Shown piece by piece: positions 17,734 through 37,662 of a stretch of 38,561 nucleotides of DNA. Both the position numbers and the translations under genes were made by a program. The DNA is taken from positions 1 through 38,561 of the IMG/VR virus record IMGVR_UViG_3300029821_000128; one strand, given 5' to 3'. Under the pieces are notes generated by a model. That model was not told where the DNA came from and made no database searches. It saw nothing but the letters and a program-made list of their open reading frames with translations. How positions within the stretch are numbered: the stretch's first letter is position 1; every line of letters starts with the position of its first letter. This stretch comes from a virus. Lineage: Duplodnaviria; Caudoviricetes.

Positions 17734-17960
17734 ATTTTAACCCCACGACGGCGAAGCATGGCGTTAAATTCTTCATCAATTCTCGCCTGCTCTTCGGGAG
17801 TCGGCGGTTCATGCTCAACAACTTTTCCTAGCGCTGGAATATCATACTGAGTTCGCCACAAAAAGCGATCACGCTCGCTCATTTCACCAAATCGGGTGGC
17901 TTTTTCGCCATCAGGCAGCGCCAAGAATTCTTTGATCGTAAGCGTCGGTTTATTCGTCAT
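17730..17960 (-). CDS. Small hypothetical protein, candidate immunity to MuF-ART, 76 aa
   Basis: ATG at 17960 with GAGG RBS, overlaps MuF 3' end; not part of the canonical Mu F-G gene order. Confidence 0.6.
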   Translation of the reverse strand: MTNKPTLTIKEFLALPDGEKATRFGEMSERDRFLWRTQYDIPALGKVVEHEPPTPEEQARIDEEFNAMLRRRGVKI

Positions 17961-19173
17961 TGGCAACCTCTTCGAGCCAAATATAATACACATCGTTGCT
18001 CGATGTCACTTTCTTAACCTTGAACGATGAATTTCTTGCAAAAAGAACCTCTTGCTCCGCTGGGTTAAACTCAGTAAAATCAGCGCCATTCAGCGACTTG
18101 ATAAACATTTGCACCTGGCCATCGGGATTATAGACGTCGCCTTTTGTTGTAGAGAGAAATTGCTTAAAAGGGAATGTAGCTGATGGCTTAAATTGCGACA
18201 CATAATCTTGAGCGGCCTGTTTATCATTGAAGAAAAGCGACCTGGTAACCTCACCTTTATATTTTGGTTGAGCAGCAATGATCTTATCAAGGCTTTTAAC
18301 AATTTTTTCCTCAGTTTCTGTCAGCGGCGCATCGTCTCTAAGCTTTTCATTCAAAACATAACTGCCACCTGAAACATAAGCATTTACGGCATACTGGTCT
18401 TCATCTTCAAGCTGTTTGGCCTCTTTTATTACGGCATTAAGGCGAGGACGCAGGTCTGGCGGATAATTTTCAGGTTTTGGCTGCCAGACGTCTTTTCCCG
18501 GATTATAATCCCATCCATCAGGAACATGCGGGCTGATTTTGACTGCTTCGATTTCGCCTTTGCTGACTTCCAGGCCCTTCGTTTCAACTTCGAATTTGGA
18601 AAGCGAAACGACCCGACAACGACAGCCCCAGCCGTTCGGCGGGTAATATTTATCCCAGAATGGATCATCATGCCGGAATATTTTTCCGTTAAGCACGCGA
18701 TGAGCGTCTCTGGTTCTGCCGTCCATGACCGCAACGTATTTCCAGTAAGGGCGCAGCCTGGTGCTACCTTTCATTTCCTTGTATCGACCCGCCATGTAGG
18801 CAGTTTGCATATTGGTGCGGTAGATGGTTTTCAATCGCCAGGGCGCAGAAAGATCAACTTCTTTTTGTGAGCCGTCTGGGCGATCAATGTTCTTTTTGCC
18901 CCACCAGCCTTTCTTTTCGAGAAGCAGTTGCAGGTCTTTCTTGAAGCTTTCGAAACTTTTGCCGCCATTCTGAGCGTCCTCGACGGCCTTGCGGATATCG
19001 ACCAGCACGTCGAGTTGAGTGACACCGGCGACGGTGAAGGCTCTGGTGTGTGCTTCGCGCTTCATTTCGTGCCAATCAAAACTGACCTGGTAGCCCTTCT
19101 TTTCGAAGTATTTGATAGCTTCGTCAGGTGGCAGGTTGAAAGCGCCCTTTAAAATGTCGGCATCACCTGGCAT
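17950..19173 (-). CDS. muF: MuF (gp30/SPP1 gp7-like) minor head protein with C-terminal ADP-ribosyltransferase domain, 407 aa
   Basis: AFTVAG, RLKTIYRTNMQTAY.AGR, YPPNGWGCRC MuF motifs; C-terminal AY..G.Y.LNEKLR, VTR, FLSTT, EQEVLF (R-S-E clade ART). Confidence 0.88.
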   Translation of the reverse strand: MPGDADILKGAFNLPPDEAIKYFEKKGYQVSFDWHEMKREAHTRAFTVAGVTQLDVLVDIRKAVEDAQNGGKSFESFKKDLQLLLEKKGWWGKKNIDRPDGSQKEVDLSAPWRLKTIYRTNMQTAYMAGRYKEMKGSTRLRPYWKYVAVMDGRTRDAHRVLNGKIFRHDDPFWDKYYPPNGWGCRCRVVSLSKFEVETKGLEVSKGEIEAVKISPHVPDGWDYNPGKDVWQPKPENYPPDLRPRLNAVIKEAKQLEDEDQYAVNAYVSGGSYVLNEKLRDDAPLTETEEKIVKSLDKIIAAQPKYKGEVTRSLFFNDKQAAQDYVSQFKPSATFPFKQFLSTTKGDVYNPDGQVQMFIKSLNGADFTEFNPAEQEVLFARNSSFKVKKVTSSNDVYYIWLEEVANDE

Positions 19174-20679
19174 TCAGACGCCCCCATACGGCGGCAACGA
19201 AGTAGGCCCGTTCAAGCATTTTGGTGAGAGCATCGAATGACAGGCCGTCGTAAGTTTCGACCAGGTCAGTCATGATCTGCTCATAGCTCTGGCCATTCTC
19301 AATCAACTTAATAATAGGGGCCAGTATGCCTTCAGCCTGCTTTTGCAGTTCAACCGGGTTGATGTCGTCGACAAACTCTTCGACAACAGTCTGCGGATTC
19401 GCTAGTTTGCGAGGCATTCCCAGCCCTTTGCGCAGATAGTCAGCAATTTCTTCCTGAGATGGCACCGCAAAGTTTATCGGCTTGCCGGGTTGCTGGTTGG
19501 CTATCGGTGCCGATGGCTCTGCGAGGTCGAAGTCGTCTTCCTGCAGGTTGTATTCGCGCACGAAGTAGCTTTTCTTAAACTTGACGCCGGCCTGGCCGAG
19601 TTTGGTGTCGCGGTCGGCTTTTTGCGCCAGATCTTCGTCTTCTTCAAAATCGCGCCAGAGTTGCGGCACTGGAGCGCCGGGCATGTTGAGCTCGATAATC
19701 CATTTCACCAGGGTATTATTCAGGCATTCGCACAGCGCGTCAGCATCTGCTTTTGCAGTTTCGAGACGCACTTCGTTGCCGACCTCATCCCTGGCACGGC
19801 TGCCGCCGGCGGTATTCTGATTCGTGGTGCCAGTTTCGCCGAGAACGACTTCAGAGATTTGTTCGTCCATGTAGCGCACGAGCTTTTCGTAAGTGTCGAT
19901 ACCGCTTCTGGCCGCTTCGAGCAAAGTGACTTCCATGCCCTCGGGTATGGTTATGCCACTGTCGCTTGCTATAGCCTGCAAGGCAGCTTTTAAGGCGTCT
20001 TTCTCGCTTTTCGTGGCGCTGGCGAGCCGTATTTGTCGCAGAAAACCAGCCAGAAGGTAATACCTTTACGCTTGAAGAAGACCGGCCAGAAAAGGCTGTT
20101 GCCGAGCGCAAAACCATAAGGGTTTTCATAACGCGGCTCGAAGGTGAATTTGATGAATTTTCTTTCAGGCAGGGGGATGCCCTTGTATGTGTCTCGCATC
20201 GTAAGCAGGCGCATTTCAACACCGTCGCCTTCATCGACAAAAACGAAGCGCTGCGGCTTTCTGAATCTGATCTCGGCCGGTCGGATCTCGTTCTCTTCGC
20301 GCACCCACATCACTTCGCCGACTGAGTAGCCTTTCATGATTGCATCGAGAAAACCTGTGGTAGCTTTATCGATGTCGAGCTTGTCCATGTGTCGGCGAAG
20401 CAGCTCGGCAGATTCTTTGGCCTCAGCGGTATCGTCTGCTTCGTTGACTACCCATTCGCGTGAAGTTACAGCACGTTTGCGTTTGCTGATAACAGTTCTG
20501 ACGTGCGCGTCAGATTCGAGATCTTCGTAGGTATCGAGGGCAAGTGTTCCGCCGCGCGACTGCAAAACCTTGTCGGGATTCGGCAAAATGCCTCCGAACA
20601 GCGGCGTTTCGTCTCGGATAGGTGCTATTTCGACGGTCAGTTCTTTTGAAACGACCTTGGTATCTTTCTTTTTTGCCAT
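19163..20679 (-). pseudogene. Portal protein (Mu gp29, DUF935), split by a frameshift at about 20020
   Basis: 5' part has D.HV....KRK.AV, DAIMKGYSVGEVMW, W..FCDKYGSP; 3' part in another frame has SEVVLGETGTT, GNEVR...KADA; the usual xxGKYP between them is missing. Confidence 0.8.
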
Positions 20680-24415: not shown

Positions 24416-24450
24416 AAAAGAGAATTCCCCTCGAATTTCGAGGGGAATTC
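24416..24450 (-). terminator. Terminator hairpin after the 40-aa peptide gene
   Basis: Inverted repeat GAATTCCCCTCGAA / TTCGAGGGGAATTC (24422-24450) followed by TCTTTT on minus strand. Confidence 0.7.
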
Positions 24451-24497
24451 ATAGAACTAAAAGGTATTTGCTCTCAGAGACAGCCAGTTACCCTATA

Positions 24498-24620
24498 CTA
24501 TTTGCGCTTCTTGCCGCCGAAAGGCCAGGCTTTATAGCCGTAGTCTTTGGCGATCATAAGCTTGCCAGTTCTGTAGTGTCGATAGACAGTTACGTAACCG
24601 TGCTCTGTATGATGATCCAT
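24498..24620 (-). CDS. Unannotated 40-aa basic peptide MDHHTEHGYVTVYRHYRTGKLMIAKDYGYKAWPFGGKKRK
   Basis: Perfect AAGGAGG SD 8 nt before ATG; own downstream terminator. Confidence 0.75.
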   Translation of the reverse strand: MDHHTEHGYVTVYRHYRTGKLMIAKDYGYKAWPFGGKKRK

Positions 24621-24622
24621 AA

Positions 24623-24666
24623 GGTCGTCCTCCTTAAACTATGATTTTCACCTTAAGGAAACGACC
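24623..24666 (-). promoter_or_regulatory. SD-sequestering hairpin in the peptide 5' UTR
   Basis: GGUCGUUUCCUUA pairs with UAAGGAGGACGACC (13 bp, one bulge). Confidence 0.7.
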
Positions 24667-24668
24667 AA

Positions 24669-24697
24669 TTGACAAAAGATCATCTCTGAGTTAATCT
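24669..24697 (+). promoter_or_regulatory. Sigma70-type promoter for an antisense sRNA
   Basis: TTGACA - 17 bp - TAATCT with no plus-strand gene downstream. Confidence 0.65.
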
Positions 24698-24703
24698 TTC
24701 GAT

Positions 24704-24770
24704 AACAAATGATTCGATCGCTGCCTTAACGGTAGCAAAAAACTCAGATGCTCGTAACATCTGAGTTTTT
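24704..24770 (+). ncRNA. Predicted ~67-nt antisense sRNA with two hairpins
   Basis: Between the promoter and a terminator; hairpin GCUGCC-UUAAC-GGUAGC then terminator stem + U5; start position approximate. Confidence 0.55.
24737..24770. terminator. Bidirectional intrinsic terminator
   Basis: AAAAAA-CTCAGATG-CTCGTAA-CATCTGAG-TTTTT; abuts ImmA stop codon. Confidence 0.8.
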
Positions 24771-25356
24771 ACTTTTTCTTCATACTGTTAACTCTATAGC
24801 AGGCTGCCTCATATGAGACGCCAAAAACTTCAGCTATTTCATTAATTGTAGCTCCTTCTCGCAAAAGCATTTCCACTTGAAAAGTAGGCATCAAAAATCT
24901 TGCTGCAAAAGCGTTTGCCTGAATTTCTGGATCTTCATATGGTTTCAGAAATGATCTATTCAGACGTATTCCAGAACTTTCTCCTCGCAAAGAAGTCGAC
25001 TCTCTGAGATATTTCGCGTGAACAGCAATATGACAAATTTCATGCGCCACAGTAAATCTTGCTCGCCCATAACCCGAACTTGATTCATCACCAAGAGAAT
25101 CATATGTTTCATGCGATAGAATTATCTGCTTTGACTTACAAAGAGTCATAGCTTCCACATCTGAAGGCAAATGTTTAATTTGATACTCGTATCCCAACAA
25201 CCATTTCAAATCTGCTTCGAATAGTGAAGCCAAGTCAATCGAAGACGGTTCTTTCAAACTTTCAACAGCAACTCGCTGCCTTATTGCAAGTCCGATGCCT
25301 TCAAGATCGTTCCAGCTTCGCGAAGGGACTCTGGGAACTTTATTATTACTCGTCAT
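24769..25356 (-). CDS. ImmA/IrrE family metallopeptidase (DUF955), 195 aa
   Basis: RARFTVAHEICH (HExxH), EIQANAFAARFLMP, FGVSYEAA HTH tail. Confidence 0.92.
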   Translation of the reverse strand: MTSNNKVPRVPSRSWNDLEGIGLAIRQRVAVESLKEPSSIDLASLFEADLKWLLGYEYQIKHLPSDVEAMTLCKSKQIILSHETYDSLGDESSSGYGRARFTVAHEICHIAVHAKYLRESTSLRGESSGIRLNRSFLKPYEDPEIQANAFAARFLMPTFQVEMLLREGATINEIAEVFGVSYEAACYRVNSMKKK

Positions 25357-25711
25357 CGTCTTTGGGTTTCCCCCTTAATACTTTCAAGATCTGTTCTGCT
25401 TGGTCATCCGTTAAGCCTTTTAGAGCTCTACCCAAAGAGAGAGCTGCATCCAACTGAAGGTCATGCAAACCCTCAGTATCAAGTTCGATATGCTTTCTCT
25501 GCTGAGCCGCGAGCCTCAATAGTTCATTTTCATCCGCACCGATAATTTTCGCTATTTTGACTATTCTTTCTGGACTTGGTGGAGCTCTATGCCCTAACTC
25601 AACATCAGAAAGATAGACAGCGGAACATTCAAGCGCTTTACCTAGCTGTCTCAAAGTTATTCTTGAGTGCTCTCGAAGCTCTCGAACCCTTTCTCCGAAT
25701 TTCTGCGACAT
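25346..25711 (-). CDS. XRE-family HTH regulator, 121 aa
   Basis: ATG 25711 with GAGGAG RBS; FGERVRELR...LRQLG...YLSDVELG.RAPP. Confidence 0.9.
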   Translation of the reverse strand: MSQKFGERVRELREHSRITLRQLGKALECSAVYLSDVELGHRAPPSPERIVKIAKIIGADENELLRLAAQQRKHIELDTEGLHDLQLDAALSLGRALKGLTDDQAEQILKVLRGKPKDDDE

Positions 25712-25782
25712 TCCGTTTCTCCTCATTGTAAGTGCAGTTTGTTCTAGTTTTACTCGAACACATTTACCTGTCACTACATGAT

Positions 25783-25812
25783 ATTATACTGTAAGCTAAC
25801 GAGCTTACGCAA
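25783..25812 (-). promoter_or_regulatory. Promoter of XRE-ImmA operon with palindromic operator
   Basis: TTGCGT - 18 bp - TATAAT; inverted repeat GTAAGCT-N4-AGCTTAC (25791-25808) between the elements. Confidence 0.7.
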
Positions 25813-25851
25813 CCCCTATTTTTATTTTTTTCATAGATTCTGGACTTTGCC

Positions 25852-25878
25852 AAAAAAGCCGGCGAGTAAGCCGGCTTT
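25852..25878 (-). terminator. Terminator of early operon
   Basis: AAAGCCGGC-N6-GCCGGCTTT with T6 tail on minus strand. Confidence 0.8.
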
Positions 25879-34408: not shown

Positions 34409-35209
34409 ATGGGCCAAAACAAGGACAAAAACAGAGCTTCAGGCAACATACAACTTCATGAAGGCGGCATCAAAAAAGTTGGATGTTTGGAAAACGAACA
34501 TACAACTTTTTCGACAAGGCTTCAGTTTGTGTTGGGCGAAGAATCGGCAAGGGCTTTTGCCAAGAGGGCTGACATCTTACCAGCCACATTCCACAACTAC
34601 ATAAAAGGCACTAGTGAGCCTACTAGGCCTGTTATTGTCGCCATTGCCAAAACAGCCGACGTTAACATCGAGTGGCTTGCAACCGGCACCGGCCCGATGC
34701 GCAAGGGTGAAACCTTACTCGCGACGATCGAACCGGCAGCATTCACAATAACCAACCTAGAAGGTCGCCAGGTGGAGTTTAAACCCTCACCAAACTTGTG
34801 CCACCTTCCGATCCTCGACTTGCGCGTCTCATGTGGATCGGGTTCGTTTATTGACAGCGAGGCTGTTCAGGCTGTTTTTTCGGCAACTGCCAGCTGGATC
34901 AGGCGAGAGTTGGGTGCAAATCCAGAAGATCTTACCCTGGTGTTTGCCGATGGCGATTCGATGACCGACACAATCAAACCGGAGGAAATCGTTATCGTTG
35001 ATCGCTCCAAAGCCAAGCGCCCCGGAGACGGTATATGGGTCTTTCTATACGACGATGGCCTTTTCATCAAACGTCTGCAGTTTATGCCAGGGAAACAGGT
35101 CGAAGTGACAAGCGACAATCCTCGCTACAAAACATATTCCCTGACCCCCGACGATTCCTTCCGCCTCCTGGGCCGAGTCATCGCCGCCCTACCGCTGAGA
35201 AGGCTATAG
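34409..35209 (+). CDS. CI/LexA-type repressor (XRE HTH + S24 peptidase), up to 266 aa
   Basis: HTH ...VNIEWLATGTGPM; VSCGSG cleavage loop, GDSM (Ser), FIKRL (Lys); divergent from early operon. Confidence 0.92.
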   Translation: MGQNKDKNRASGNIQLHEGGIKKVGCLENEHTTFSTRLQFVLGEESARAFAKRADILPATFHNYIKGTSEPTRPVIVAIAKTADVNIEWLATGTGPMRKGETLLATIEPAAFTITNLEGRQVEFKPSPNLCHLPILDLRVSCGSGSFIDSEAVQAVFSATASWIRRELGANPEDLTLVFADGDSMTDTIKPEEIVIVDRSKAKRPGDGIWVFLYDDGLFIKRLQFMPGKQVEVTSDNPRYKTYSLTPDDSFRLLGRVIAALPLRRL

Positions 35210-35246
35210 AATAATGATTTTTAATTATAAAACGAGGAAAATTGAT

Positions 35247-36050
35247 ATGAAAAAAACGATGCTATTAGTGACTCTTGCCTTACTTCTTGCCTCATCGTCT
35301 TTTGCTGCTTTCTGCTCTAAATGCGGCTACAAGGCCGGCGATGAAAGTGTTTTTTGTTCTAAATGCGGCACCAAATTAGATGGCTCAGCGGCAAACGACT
35401 CGAAACATTCTGAAACAGATACGTTGGCGTTAATTGATGATAAATTTTCGCCAGTAAATGATTTTGAAATCTTTGTTTATAGCTCTAACTACCTGACTTG
35501 CGTTGCAAAATTTCCAGAATTTCAAATTCTATTCAATAAAAATATCAAAGATATCGAGGAGATTGAAAAAACTGCGGGAAAACGCGACAAACAGATTATT
35601 GCATATTATTACAGGAAGTGGGAGATTCTTAAAACTCTTCAAGATGTGTGGAGTTCAAACATTGGCACTAATATTCGCAAACAAGCATATATGGTTAAGT
35701 TTGCAGGGGTTTTGAAATATATCAACGAGATAATTGCAAAATTAAAAGTCGGAATATCTGACCCCGATTTGAAAGCTTTAGAAACAAAACTGAATGTGCT
35801 TTTGAAAGTCTACAAAGTTACTTCTCGATACATACTTGTCAATGACTTTCGCCTTCCCAAGCAGCAAGAAATAGGTATAGAAGAAATTCAGGAAGATAAA
35901 GTAAAGGTTATACATCTTGGGGATTGGTTTGAAAGCGTTGTGCTAACAGGCTCCGTGGAAACTTCTGTAGAAAACTTAACGAGTCCTATATCTGGCTGGG
36001 TTTCAAAAGAAGAGTTCAAGAAGCGAACAGACGGTGCAGAACTAGATTGA
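35247..36050 (+). CDS. Exported zinc-ribbon protein, 267 aa
   Basis: GAGGA RBS; signal peptide MKKTMLLVTLALLLASSSFA; FCSKCG...FCSKCG. Confidence 0.75.
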   Translation: MKKTMLLVTLALLLASSSFAAFCSKCGYKAGDESVFCSKCGTKLDGSAANDSKHSETDTLALIDDKFSPVNDFEIFVYSSNYLTCVAKFPEFQILFNKNIKDIEEIEKTAGKRDKQIIAYYYRKWEILKTLQDVWSSNIGTNIRKQAYMVKFAGVLKYINEIIAKLKVGISDPDLKALETKLNVLLKVYKVTSRYILVNDFRLPKQQEIGIEEIQEDKVKVIHLGDWFESVVLTGSVETSVENLTSPISGWVSKEEFKKRTDGAELD

Positions 36051-36204
36051 TCTGAATTAACGGATCGTGCAAATTAGGTAATATAGTGAAATTAAAACCA
36101 GTTCCGGCTTCACCGGCTGGGTCAGTAGCTGGTTTGTAAAAGAGAATTAAAAAAGGACGAGTAATCGATAATCTCTCCTTGAATAAACTATAAGGCTTTG
36201 GCAA

Positions 36205-36855
36205 ATGACTTCGGACGAACTTGTATCGGCGATTGATCCATTCAGCAAATCATCGGAACACCTGCTTGTAGTAATTTTCACCAAAAGCAGCTCTATAAAT
36301 TTTCCGCTTGCTTTGAATATAGCTGAAGGTGCCAACAGGTTTGTAACTGCAGACATAAAAGGAAAGCCTACTTACTTTGTTCAATTTGCAAAAAGCAATG
36401 ATGATGCTGGTCGCGCAGTTGCGTTGCTTGATCTCGTTAAAGATTGGAAAGGTGTTCAGATTTTTTCAAGAGGTCGGCTGCTGGCAAGCGTTTTCACTGT
36501 GAATATGGTGCTAAACTGTTTTATAAATTCACTTTCTTGCCGCGATTATACTGCTCACTGCCACGAAATAATCGATGATCCATTTCGTGAAGATGTTAGA
36601 AGTTCTGGGTTATCTCTCTCTATAAATCTTGTTACCAAGCCCCCAATAAAGCAAAAAGTAGTAATAGATCGCTTTTCATTCCCTTGCAAACACCTTTATT
36701 TTCATTTCCGCTTTCAAAAGGATCATCCAGCATCATTGCCAGATCAAATACAGGCTGGCGCTGTAAATTATGGCTGTGATTGGTGTCCGAATTTTAGTCC
36801 TGATAATTGGAAAAAAGTTGGCGAAAAAGAGCTATTCAAAGACTTTTTTGAATAG
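36205..36855 (+). CDS. Hypothetical Cys/His-rich protein, 216 aa
   Basis: Long AT-rich ORF; C..SL.C.DYTAHC, FPC, GCDWCPNF. Confidence 0.75.
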   Translation: MTSDELVSAIDPFSKSSEHLLVVIFTKSSSINFPLALNIAEGANRFVTADIKGKPTYFVQFAKSNDDAGRAVALLDLVKDWKGVQIFSRGRLLASVFTVNMVLNCFINSLSCRDYTAHCHEIIDDPFREDVRSSGLSLSINLVTKPPIKQKVVIDRFSFPCKHLYFHFRFQKDHPASLPDQIQAGAVNYGCDWCPNFSPDNWKKVGEKELFKDFFE

Positions 36856-36876
36856 CACCAAACCAAGGAGAGAATT

Positions 36877-37662
36877 ATGTCAGATAATGAGAGTAAAAAC
36901 CCAATTACACAAGCTTTAGGCCCCGCTGCCTCAAATTTTGGCAAAGAGATTGCGCCACTGGGCACTGATGCAGGCAAATTAGTTTATGGTATTTATGAAA
37001 CAGTTTTGAAGAAACCATACGACTGTGTTATTGCGATAAAAAGCGAGGCTTGGAAGTATTTTAAATCAAAATTAGATGAAAGGTTGTCGAAAGAAACACC
37101 TGAAAATTTGATTCCACCCAAATTAGCAATAGCCGAGCCGATAATCGAACATGCTGTTCGACTGGAAAACGAGAAAGAGCTTCAAGACATGTTCGCAAAC
37201 CTGCTGAGCTCATCAATGATAAAGAATTCTTCGAATAAAGTGTTGCCTTCTTTTGTTGAAGCTTTGAAGCAGCTGAGCTCTGACGAAGCAAAAATAATCA
37301 AGAGTGTTTTCAATTCGTCATCGCGCTCGTTTGCATGCTTAACAATTAAAGCCTTTAACAAAGAGCGTTTTACTACCGTGCAGGAGTGTTTTTCGTTAAT
37401 CTGCGTGGAAGCAGGATGCGAAATTCCGAACAGAACACACATCTACGTGCAAAGCCTTGCACGGCTTGGCATTCTGCAGCAAATACAGAACACCATGTTT
37501 GCAGATATGAATAAATACAAAGAGCTTGAGCATGCCGTTGCATTGCTAGATCTTGTAAAAGATTACGAAATTCTTGCACCTGGGTGCAATATTGTTTTTG
37601 AAAAAAACCTTGTTCAGCTTACTGATTACGGGAAGCTTCTGTGTGAGGTTTGCGTGAAGTAA
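36877..37662 (+). CDS. DUF4393 / Abi-alpha-like protein, 261 aa
   Basis: PPKLAIAEPIIE, LQDMFANLL.SSM, PSFVE.LKQLS.DEAKI, L.RLGIL, LTDYG..LC..C. Confidence 0.8.
   Translation: MSDNESKNPITQALGPAASNFGKEIAPLGTDAGKLVYGIYETVLKKPYDCVIAIKSEAWKYFKSKLDERLSKETPENLIPPKLAIAEPIIEHAVRLENEKELQDMFANLLSSSMIKNSSNKVLPSFVEALKQLSSDEAKIIKSVFNSSSRSFACLTIKAFNKERFTTVQECFSLICVEAGCEIPNRTHIYVQSLARLGILQQIQNTMFADMNKYKELEHAVALLDLVKDYEILAPGCNIVFEKNLVQLTDYGKLLCEVCVK

What the first reader, a model, noticed from the sequence alone, without database searches (positions are those of the whole stretch)
24416..25812. Self-contained cassette: XRE repressor + ImmA/IrrE protease + antisense-gated 40-aa peptide, inserted between early and lysis operons
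Seen: an AT-rich unit insulated by terminators at 25852-25878 and 24416-24450. It has a promoter with a palindromic operator (GTAAGCT-N4-AGCTTAC), XRE HTH, HExxH ImmA/IrrE peptidase, a bidirectional terminator, a structured leader and an unannotated peptide gene. Established: ImmA/ImmR, IrrE/DdrO and CapP/CapH pairs derepress transcription by proteolysis of the HTH partner after DNA damage, and CapP/CapH control defence operons. Inference: the only cargo here is the peptide. Cleavage of XRE would raise read-through mRNA until it titrates the antisense RNA, giving thresholded peptide expression. The peptide could be a toxin/abortive-infection effector, an antirepressor or a modulator of the protease. 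I do not know of a described system with this four-part layout.
Basis: partly seen in the sequence, partly recalled or inferred. Interest (0 to 1): 0.88.

Follow-up and report, generated by a model that had tools for sequence, protein, structure and literature searches.

The report
Protease-switched, antisense-gated mini-protein cassette
A mobile cassette in this Mu-like prophage joins a repressor and its likely cutting protease to a conserved, unnamed 40-residue basic mini-protein whose translation is predicted to be held off by an antisense RNA; the same layout recurs in many unrelated phages, and the mini-protein is likely a growth-arresting defence toxin that would be released when the repressor is destroyed.

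Summary
Observation confirmed and widened. Window 24420-25851 is a low-GC insert in a variable slot of a Mu-like phage. It holds an XRE repressor, a GAF-less M78 (ImmA/IrrE-type) peptidase, an antisense promoter-terminator unit and a 40-aa basic peptide. The peptide is a real gene of a large unnamed family (190 clusters at 50% identity). Of 79 viral loci picked by a peptidase motif alone, 76 carry a short basic peptide 120-260 nt downstream; 0 of 27 other M78 genes hit the family profile. An antisense sigma-70 promoter beats shuffles in 26 of 44 loci against 0 of 27 controls. The hairpin behind the peptidase has its U-tract on the antisense strand in 20 of 38 loci and on the sense strand in 2. 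In the window, masking the RNA-covered leader raises the cost of opening the ribosome site from 8.3 to 17.8 kcal/mol. The peptide-antisense unit also sits behind other DNA-binding genes and, once, under a CRISPR-like repressor RNA. Best reading: a derepression-sensing, type I-like toxin module. Transcripts, cleavage and toxicity are all untested. Not found in the literature searched.

The parts
25852..25878 (-). Terminator of the phage early operon; upstream border of the slot, not part of the cargo
   Evidence: Hairpin z -4.5; 27 nt at 96% identity in sister phages L278 and L279 that lack the cassette
25783..25812 (-). Predicted sigma-70 promoter of the cassette (-35 TTGCGT 25812-25807, 18 nt, -10 TATAAT 25788-25783)
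   Evidence: the -35 box and most of the spacer are kept in homologue L020
25791..25808 (.). Palindrome in the promoter spacer; likely operator for XRE autorepression
   Evidence: Single occurrence in the window with up to 3 mismatches; p=0.05 against shuffles; core kept in L020. Binding is inferred.
25346..25711 (-). XRE/CapH-like helix-turn-helix repressor, 121 aa
   Evidence: Pfam HTH_31 E 7e-14; PADLOC capH E 9.5e-13
24769..25356 (-). M78 (ImmA/IrrE-type) zinc peptidase, 195 aa, peptidase plus short helical domain, no GAF domain; overlaps the XRE stop
   Evidence: PF06114 E 1.3e-17; H105, E106, H109 invariant and E144 nearly so in 57 sequences; model pLDDT 94, best match CapP 7t5t with TM 0.57 on the query and 0.42 on the 278-residue target
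24738..24770 (.). Hairpin T1 at the peptidase stop: predicted terminator of the antisense RNA; here also followed by a U-run on the sense strand
24704..24776 (+). Predicted antisense RNA of about 70 nt (start inferred from the promoter)
   Evidence: Promoter and terminator in sequence; enrichment in homologues; no transcript data
24713..24735 (-). Leader element that can pair with the anti-Shine-Dalgarno arm and free the ribosome site; covered by the antisense RNA
   Evidence: Inverted repeat I10; fold of the nascent leader, z -5.5; opening cost 8.3 against 17.8 kcal/mol
24669..24697 (+). Predicted antisense sigma-70 promoter (TTGACA, 17 nt, TAATCT)
   Evidence: -35 box kept in L028 and L154
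24623..24666 (-). Hairpin that hides the peptide's Shine-Dalgarno sequence
   Evidence: Fold z -2.7; local lock 17.8 against 7.4 kcal/mol in shuffles
24498..24620 (-). 40-aa basic beta-hairpin mini-protein of a large unnamed family
   Evidence: 23 hits; 190 clusters; third-position differences 501 against 175 and 185 in 33 comparisons; model pLDDT 75
24416..24450 (-). Terminator T2 closing the cassette before the lysis genes
   Evidence: Hairpin z -5.4; listed

Best explanation
The cassette is likely a self-repressed operon whose third gene, a basic mini-protein, is predicted to be kept untranslated by an antisense RNA and would act as a growth-arresting defence toxin once the repressor is cut or otherwise lost. 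Step 1 (inferred): XRE binds the palindrome in its own promoter and keeps the mRNA low. Step 2 (sequence shown, transcript inferred): a sigma-70 promoter between the peptidase and the peptide makes a ~70-nt RNA on the opposite strand that ends at hairpin T1. Step 3 (computed): the peptide's ribosome site is locked in a hairpin; an upstream leader element can open it; the antisense RNA covers that element. Step 4 (by analogy with ImmA/ImmR and CapP/CapH): an unknown signal activates the peptidase, which cleaves XRE; mRNA then outnumbers the antisense RNA and peptide is made above a threshold. Step 5 (inferred, weakest): the peptide binds nucleic acid or an acidic host protein and arrests growth, which protects the lysogen population by abortive infection or keeps the element in place. 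The peptide-antisense unit is a portable output that is also wired behind other likely self-repressed genes.
For: Linkage: 76 of 79 motif-picked viral M78 loci have a short basic peptide in the slot (55 by profile, 21 read by eye, 3 carry DUF4417 instead); 0 of 27 other M78 genes hit the profile. Antisense promoter p<=0.05 in 26 of 44 against 0 of 27 controls, sense promoter 2 of 44; 26 of 69 against 3 of 69 in peptide-picked loci. T1 U-tract is antisense in 20 of 38, sense in 2 of 38. Masking the covered leader raises ribosome-site opening cost by over 1 kcal/mol in 19 of 30 loci and lowers it in 2; 19 against 7 of 33 at a 0.5 cut in the other set. The operator occurs only once in the window, so the peptide is the only cargo there. 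The slot is variable among sister phages. Same-strand upstream ORFs of other kinds in 36 of 54 non-M78 loci, several with weak winged-helix or MerR hits. In L050 a homologue lies between cas3 and cse1 behind a solitary repeat whose 32-nt spacer matches the upstream promoter region at 12 of 13 positions next to AAG, the layout of CRISPR-repressed toxins (10.1101/2024.01.05.574328). A three-component XRE-COG2856-toxin circuit was predicted in PMC2701414; COG2856 proteins themselves were not toxic in PMC4257102. XRE is intact in 117 of 117 cassettes and the peptidase is split in 2.
Against: No direct evidence of toxicity. The peptide has no hydrophobic segment (best 19-residue mean -0.32; family maximum 0.74), unlike most type I toxins (recalled). 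In the window the minimum-energy fold of the full leader still hides the ribosome site, so activation would be transient or co-transcriptional. The switch is weak or reversed in some loci (7 of 33), and only 6 of 30 loci beat all 15 upstream shuffles. 18 of 44 loci have no significant antisense promoter. The peptidase lacks GAF, so the trigger is unknown. Controls are chromosomal Gammaproteobacteria genes, not viral. The 0-against-2 count of broken genes is too small to weigh and the 117 cassettes are redundant. The CRISPR case is one genome of 70 in its family. Palindromes upstream of XRE were significant in only 12 of 54 loci.
Confidence: 0.5

Rival explanations
1. The peptide is a regulator, not a toxin: a nucleic-acid-binding cofactor that activates the GAF-less peptidase (positive feedback, a bistable switch) or an antirepressor acting on neighbouring operons or co-resident prophages.
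For: The peptidase lacks the GAF domain that forms half of the ssDNA groove in CapP and IrrE, so a partner in trans is plausible. Coupling to this peptidase clade is nearly complete. The peptide is basic and aromatic (net charge +6, family median +8). Some loci have further same-strand genes behind the peptide.
Against: 54 of 69 peptide-picked loci have no M78 gene upstream. At least two peptide families with different C-terminal halves fill the slot. In the window such a loop would have no output, as the operator occurs once and T2 closes the unit.
Confidence: 0.25
2. RosmerTA-like system: the peptidase is the antitoxin that destroys the peptide, XRE only balances expression, and the antisense RNA is a second lock.
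For: ImmA-type peptidases are antitoxins for varied toxins in RosmerTA (PMC10440598, passages); PADLOC RmrA models hit the peptidase at E 1e-9.
Against: The RmrA models are 357-400 positions long and both window proteins hit different parts of them, so RmrA is a fusion, while here the genes are separate and capP scores far better (E 2e-20). Peptides persist behind a split peptidase (L071, L086) and with none at all.
Confidence: 0.12
3. The peptide is a phage counter-defence or host-modulating protein (for example an inhibitor of a host nuclease or repair factor) made only on stress or induction.
For: The family is common in prophage accessory slots, also without any regulator gene (L013-L022). 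Small basic proteins are a common form for such inhibitors (recalled).
Against: A copy sits inside a chromosomal cas operon under apparent Cascade repression, and others lie beside defence-type genes such as SIR2-like, SUa-2TM and HNH. A double lock on transcription and translation fits a harmful product better.
Confidence: 0.1
4. The peptide ORF or the antisense promoter is incidental, and the locus is an ordinary XRE-M78 pair.
For: The consensus scan did not list the antisense promoter; in the window alone p=0.06.
Against: Codon-level purifying pattern (335 synonymous against 219 non-synonymous codon differences), 190 clusters, strand-specific promoter and terminator signals absent from controls.
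Confidence: 0.03

Closest known systems
CapH/CapP and DdrO/IrrE (10.1101/2022.04.27.489752, passages; PMC13228613, first quarter of the text)
   Same: Separate XRE repressor and HExxH M78 peptidase; the peptidase model matches CapP and IrrE best.
   Different: No C-terminal GAF domain; the controlled gene lies downstream in the same operon, not on the opposite strand; the cargo is a 40-aa peptide with an antisense gate.
ImmR/ImmA of ICEBs1 and phage phi105 (as described in 10.1101/2022.04.27.489752 and PMC2701414, passages)
   Same: Short M78 peptidase next to an XRE gene in a mobile element.
   Different: The phage has its own CI-like repressor (34409-35209) and the operator occurs only at the cassette promoter, so this pair does not appear to control the lytic switch.
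Predicted three-component COG2856-Xre toxin-antitoxin circuit (PMC2701414, passages)
   Same: A protease cleaving an XRE repressor that controls a third component.
   Different: There the third part is RelE or PIN, mostly with fused HTH-peptidase; here it is an unnamed basic mini-protein with a cis-antisense RNA.
Type I toxin-antitoxin systems with activating 5' leaders (hok/sok, tisB/istR, timP/timR; recalled, no call)
   Same: Short ORF, hidden ribosome site, antisense RNA acting on an upstream activating element.
   Different: The peptide is hydrophilic and basic, has no promoter of its own in most loci (sense promoter 2 of 44), and is the last gene of a repressor operon.
RosmerTA (PMC10440598, passages)
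   Same: ImmA-type peptidase next to a variable partner in phages.
   Different: Separate HTH gene; partner is a tiny soluble peptide; antisense RNA present.
CreTA/CreP (10.1101/2024.01.05.574328, first eighth of the text and passages; 10.1101/2024.12.27.630466, first sixth)
   Same: Homologue L050 lies in the gap after cas3 with a solitary repeat whose spacer partly matches the upstream promoter next to a PAM-like triplet.
   Different: CreP is a 103-aa KilAC protein in type I-F; L050 is type I-E and encodes this peptide family. The window itself has no CRISPR part.

Membership tests
CapH/CapP (DdrO/IrrE type) | XRE repressor gene next to an HExxH M78 peptidase with intact zinc ligands | tested here: met
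CapH/CapP (DdrO/IrrE type) | C-terminal GAF domain forming the ssDNA groove | tested here: not met
   195 aa, model ends in helices; TM 0.42 on the 278-residue CapP; GAF role from PMC13228613
CapH/CapP (DdrO/IrrE type) | Encoded opposite to a defence operon with a shared promoter region | tested here: not met
   Upstream neighbour is a same-strand phage gene and its terminator
CapH/CapP (DdrO/IrrE type) | Peptidase cleaves the repressor after DNA damage | not testable with these tools
   Needs an in vitro or in vivo cleavage assay
ImmR/ImmA | Short M78 antirepressor paired with an XRE gene in a mobile element | tested here: met
ImmR/ImmA | Repressor controls the element's excision or lytic genes | tested here: not met
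   Operator found once, at its own promoter; separate CI-like repressor at 34409-35209. Very divergent sites could be missed.
Type I toxin-antitoxin | Small conserved ORF | tested here: met
Type I toxin-antitoxin | Cis-antisense promoter and terminator overlapping the mRNA leader | tested here: met
   Sequence signals only:
Type I toxin-antitoxin | Ribosome site hidden in mRNA structure and controlled by the RNA's target | tested here: inconclusive
   Strong in the window; consistent direction but modest size across loci
Type I toxin-antitoxin | Hydrophobic membrane peptide (usual class) | tested here: not met
Type I toxin-antitoxin | Peptide toxic and neutralised by the RNA | not testable with these tools
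   Needs expression tests
RosmerTA | Fused HTH-peptidase antitoxin RmrA | tested here: not met
   Two separate ORFs; partial hits to 357-400-position RmrA models
CreTA (homologue L050 only) | Solitary repeat-spacer unit with partial match and PAM at a promoter in a cas operon | tested here: met
   Only minus-strand hit among 56 repeat matches; 12 of 13 match next to AAG; PAM and position-6 rule for type I-E are recalled
Any named peptide or RNA family (Pfam, NCBIfam, PADLOC, PHROGs, PDB, Rfam) | Profile or structure match | tested here: not met
   Window peptide: no hit; relatives hit only PHROGs of unknown function (4533, 33859, 21154, 30400); Rfam 0 hits at E<=1

The most novel reading that the evidence does not exclude
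A widespread, unrecognised class of 'guard' modules: soluble basic beta-hairpin toxins under antisense control that are appended to any self-repressed promoter (protease-cleavable XRE, winged-helix repressors, CRISPR Cascade) and fire when that repression fails. This would give the many orphan XRE-M78 pairs of prophages their missing output and define a new non-membrane type I toxin superfamily.
Probability: 0.4. Interest if true: 0.88.

Novelty: new variant of a known kind. Interest (0 to 1): 0.74.

Why it matters
XRE-COG2856 pairs are abundant in prophages and were predicted in 2009 to control a third component (PMC2701414). This work names a candidate third and fourth component for one whole clade of them: an unannotated mini-protein and an antisense RNA, both missed by gene callers (unannotated in Escherichia phage LLS and a Geobacter plasmid). 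The module is present in a phage of E. coli K-12 and in 32 of 5,426 E. coli genomes, so every step can be tested in a laboratory strain. If the peptide is toxic it adds a soluble toxin class and links type I RNA control to protease and CRISPR sensors.

Tried and rejected
Complex prediction of peptidase, zinc and peptide gave no verdict (score 0.02, mark 0.32); it is not counted either way. Sequencing runs: no RNA holder listed. Peptide fold search found no match at Z>=2 and the PDB sequence search none of note. ESM Atlas gave only unnamed clusters below 0.9 and no named hit. Rfam gave nothing. A search with the single peptidase found no viral relatives. My early idea that the intergenic region holds the peptide's own repressed promoter was rejected: sense promoters are at chance level (3 of 69, 2 of 44). 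An antiterminator role for downstream genes was set aside because downstream genes vary in kind and strand. CreP identity was rejected (CreP is a KilAC protein). A role of XRE in the phage's lytic switch found no second operator. The third row was in the wrong orientation and was ignored; one search replaces it. Literature: nine searches ran; six peptide motifs gave 0 papers, and none of the listings described this four-part layout. The library lacks most subscription papers, and supplements were not read; gene tables in the supplements of the CapP, NetFlax and CRISPR-regulation papers could list members of this family.
Full report
Setting. The window is a 38.6-kb virus record of a Mu-like transposable phage: Mu transposase, Gam, GemA, Mor, gp27, portal, F and a CI-like repressor are all present. 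A Ca. Riflebacteria genome holds the identical peptide and intergenic region (L027), which points to the host group but may be the same source and is not independent support. Sister phages share the terminator at 25852-25878 and the lysis genes from about 24420 down. The site between them is empty in L278 and holds another gene in L279 and L273. The slot has 41% GC against 51-52% outside. The cassette is therefore cargo in a variable slot.

Observation. XRE (25711-25346), M78 peptidase (25356-24769), hairpin T1 (24738-24770), peptide (24620-24498) and T2 (24416-24450) are as described. The palindrome lies in the spacer of the cassette promoter and occurs once in the window. An antisense promoter sits at 24669-24697. 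The plain consensus scan missed both promoters and found no excess of terminators (3 against 3.3), so the window alone is not decisive.

The peptide is a real gene. It has 23 relatives in one search and 190 clusters at 50% identity in a profile search. Over a 26-codon core, 33 relatives differ from the window at 501 third positions against 175 and 185 first and second positions (34 of 69 loci matched the ungapped core). The model shows a beta-hairpin, a short helix and a third strand (pLDDT 75). It is basic and has no hydrophobic segment. It has no Pfam, NCBIfam, PADLOC, PHROG or PDB match; relatives hit PHROGs of unknown function only.

Linkage seen from the peptidase. I scanned viral contigs for a motif of the peptidase clade (taken from alignment A3, whose members were mostly found next to peptides; the window itself differs from the motif at one residue) and got 87 loci. 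Two had no M78 hit and six had under 300 nt downstream. Of the remaining 79, 55 have a family peptide by profile (29 of 46 clusters at 70% identity), 21 have another short basic ORF in the same place (read by eye), and 3 have DUF4417. In 400 Gammaproteobacteria genomes the only two full-length clade members both carry the peptide; 27 more distant M78 genes do not (one further locus was left out and four matches had no locus). An XRE gene was found upstream in 55 of 56. The same three genes occur in Escherichia phage LLS, two other P2-like phages and a Geobacter plasmid, and DNA like the LLS cassette covers 80% of the query in 32 of 5,426 E. coli genomes.

Linkage seen from the peptide. Of 145 peptide-picked loci, 130 had a usable start and enough upstream sequence, giving 69 non-redundant loci with the window. 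Fifteen have the peptidase upstream and 54 do not. In 36 of the 54 a same-strand ORF of 100 aa or more ends 60-420 nt upstream; these fall into many groups, several with weak winged-helix hits. The peptide is thus not tied to the protease, although this protease clade is tied to a peptide.

The antisense gate. I scored sigma-70 promoters with recalled E. coli base frequencies against base shuffles. Antisense sites reach p<=0.05 in 26 of 69 peptide-picked loci (sense 3 of 69) and in 26 of 44 peptidase-picked clusters (sense 2 of 44; controls 0 of 27; two of the 46 clusters were left out). A hairpin follows the peptidase stop in 30 of 44 against 5 of 27. Its U-tract is on the antisense strand in 20 of 38 loci and on the sense strand in 2 (38 of the 44 had a read peptide start). 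So in most loci the mRNA would run on into the peptide while the antisense RNA stops. The window's T1 has both tracts. For translation, the window's ribosome site costs 17.8 kcal/mol to open when the RNA-covered part is masked, 8.3 with the whole leader, and 16.5 when that part is shuffled. The nascent leader folds into the activating helix (z -5.5), although the full-length minimum-energy fold is locked. Across loci the direction holds but the size is modest: masking raises the cost in 19 of 30 and lowers it in 2, median 2.3 kcal/mol; the full leader beats the mean of upstream shuffles in 22 of 30 and all 15 shuffles in 6 (30 of 44 loci). In the other set (33 of 69) the counts are 19 against 7. 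No transcript was seen; all of this is sequence and folding evidence.

The peptidase. Zinc ligands are conserved in 57 sequences. The model (pLDDT 94) matches CapP and IrrE best but covers only their first two domains. CapP binds ssDNA between its peptidase and GAF domains (PMC13228613, first quarter read), so that trigger cannot be assumed. ImmA, also short, responds through RecA or RapI (10.1101/2022.04.27.489752, passages). Cleavage of XRE is inferred from these families.

A CRISPR-wired homologue. In L050 the peptide gene lies between cas3 and cse1. Upstream is the only minus-strand match among 56 repeat matches in that genome. The 32-nt spacer next to it matches the region upstream of the peptide at 12 of 13 positions, with the mismatch at position 6, beside AAG. 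This is the layout of CRISPR-repressed toxins and immune genes (10.1101/2024.01.05.574328, first eighth and passages; 10.1101/2024.12.27.630466, first sixth). It is a single case, but it shows the unit under a wholly different repressor.

Mechanism and odds. I commit to a derepression-sensing toxin module (0.5): XRE autorepression keeps mRNA below the antisense RNA; loss of XRE lifts mRNA above it; peptide is made and arrests growth. The gene layout, the peptide's coding status and the strand-specific signals are shown. The transcripts, cleavage, threshold and toxicity are inferred. Rivals are a regulatory peptide (0.25), a RosmerTA-like protease antitoxin (0.12), a counter-defence protein (0.10) and chance (0.03).

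Comparison with what is known. It works like ImmR/ImmA or CapH/CapP on the input side and like a type I toxin-antitoxin pair on the output side, but it fails defining tests for CapH/CapP (GAF, divergent operon), RosmerTA (fusion) and ordinary type I toxins (hydrophobic peptide). PMC2701414 (passages) predicted three-component COG2856-Xre circuits with RelE, PIN or an unknown third part; PMC4257102 (passages) found COG2856 proteins not toxic; PMC10440598 (passages) covers RosmerTA; 10.64898/2025.12.09.693261 (passages) added nothing on this module. Ten paper searches showed no description of this layout; supplements and subscription papers were not seen. An earlier AI note (e1-9830693) describes a conserved 38-codon gene between such a regulator and a defence operon. 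I could not see its sequence, so it may be the same family; it is not counted as support, and in my loci a downstream defence operon is not the rule.

Verdict. A real, widespread and apparently undescribed four-part module; a new variant built from known kinds, with a new peptide family. Interest 0.74, limited by the lack of any expression or function data.

Noticed in passing
window 19163-20679 (-): The Mu-type portal gene is in two ORFs in different frames (229 and 272 aa), both hitting PF06074: a broken gene or an assembly error.
   Followed up: no
window 17950-19173 (-): Mu F head protein with a C-terminal ADP-ribosyltransferase domain (PF03496, E 5e-7), followed by an 87-aa ORF that could be its immunity gene.
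   Followed up: no
window 35214-37662 (+): A second low-GC cargo block behind the CI-like repressor, including an Abi_alpha/PDC-S47 gene at 36877-37662.
   Followed up: no
L050 3170-3630 (G001): Peptide homologue between cas3 and cse1 of a type I-E system, behind a degenerate repeat-spacer-repeat unit whose spacer matches the promoter region (12 of 13, next to AAG). Found in 1 of 70 genomes of the family; the same genome has a second peptide copy (L282).
   Followed up: partly
L159, L164, L170, L176, L184, L189, L191, L200, L202, L226, L235: A second peptide family (PHROG 21154; 12 invariant columns in 10 sequences) fills the same slot with the same RNA signals.
   Followed up: partly
L163, L166, L168: A 222-aa DUF4417 gene takes the peptide's place behind the same peptidase clade.
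   Followed up: no
L020 2812-3063: A close relative of the window cassette with a deletion that fuses the peptidase start to the peptide end, removing active site, antisense unit and most of the peptide in one step. Could be an assembly error.
   Followed up: no
L157, L184, L201, L213: Four clusters have a peptidase that ends shortly after the third zinc ligand, without the last helical domain, and still carry a peptide.
   Followed up: no
L007, L009, L117; L043, L054, L128; L039, L041; L046; L057: Other genes directly upstream of the peptide: coiled-coil plus winged-helix proteins (weak HARE-HTH, Mrr_N, DUF5343 hits below cut-off), a MerR-type and a P63C-type protein.
   Followed up: partly
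L278, L279, L273: Sister Mu-like phages share the flanks of 24420-25851. The site between terminator and lysis genes is empty in L278; L279 and L273 carry a 171-180 aa gene on the opposite strand there.
   Followed up: partly
L159, L170, L177, L217: Genes right after the peptide look like DUF2188 and a Panacea-type antitoxin (labels recalled from the sequences, not from a call).
   Followed up: no
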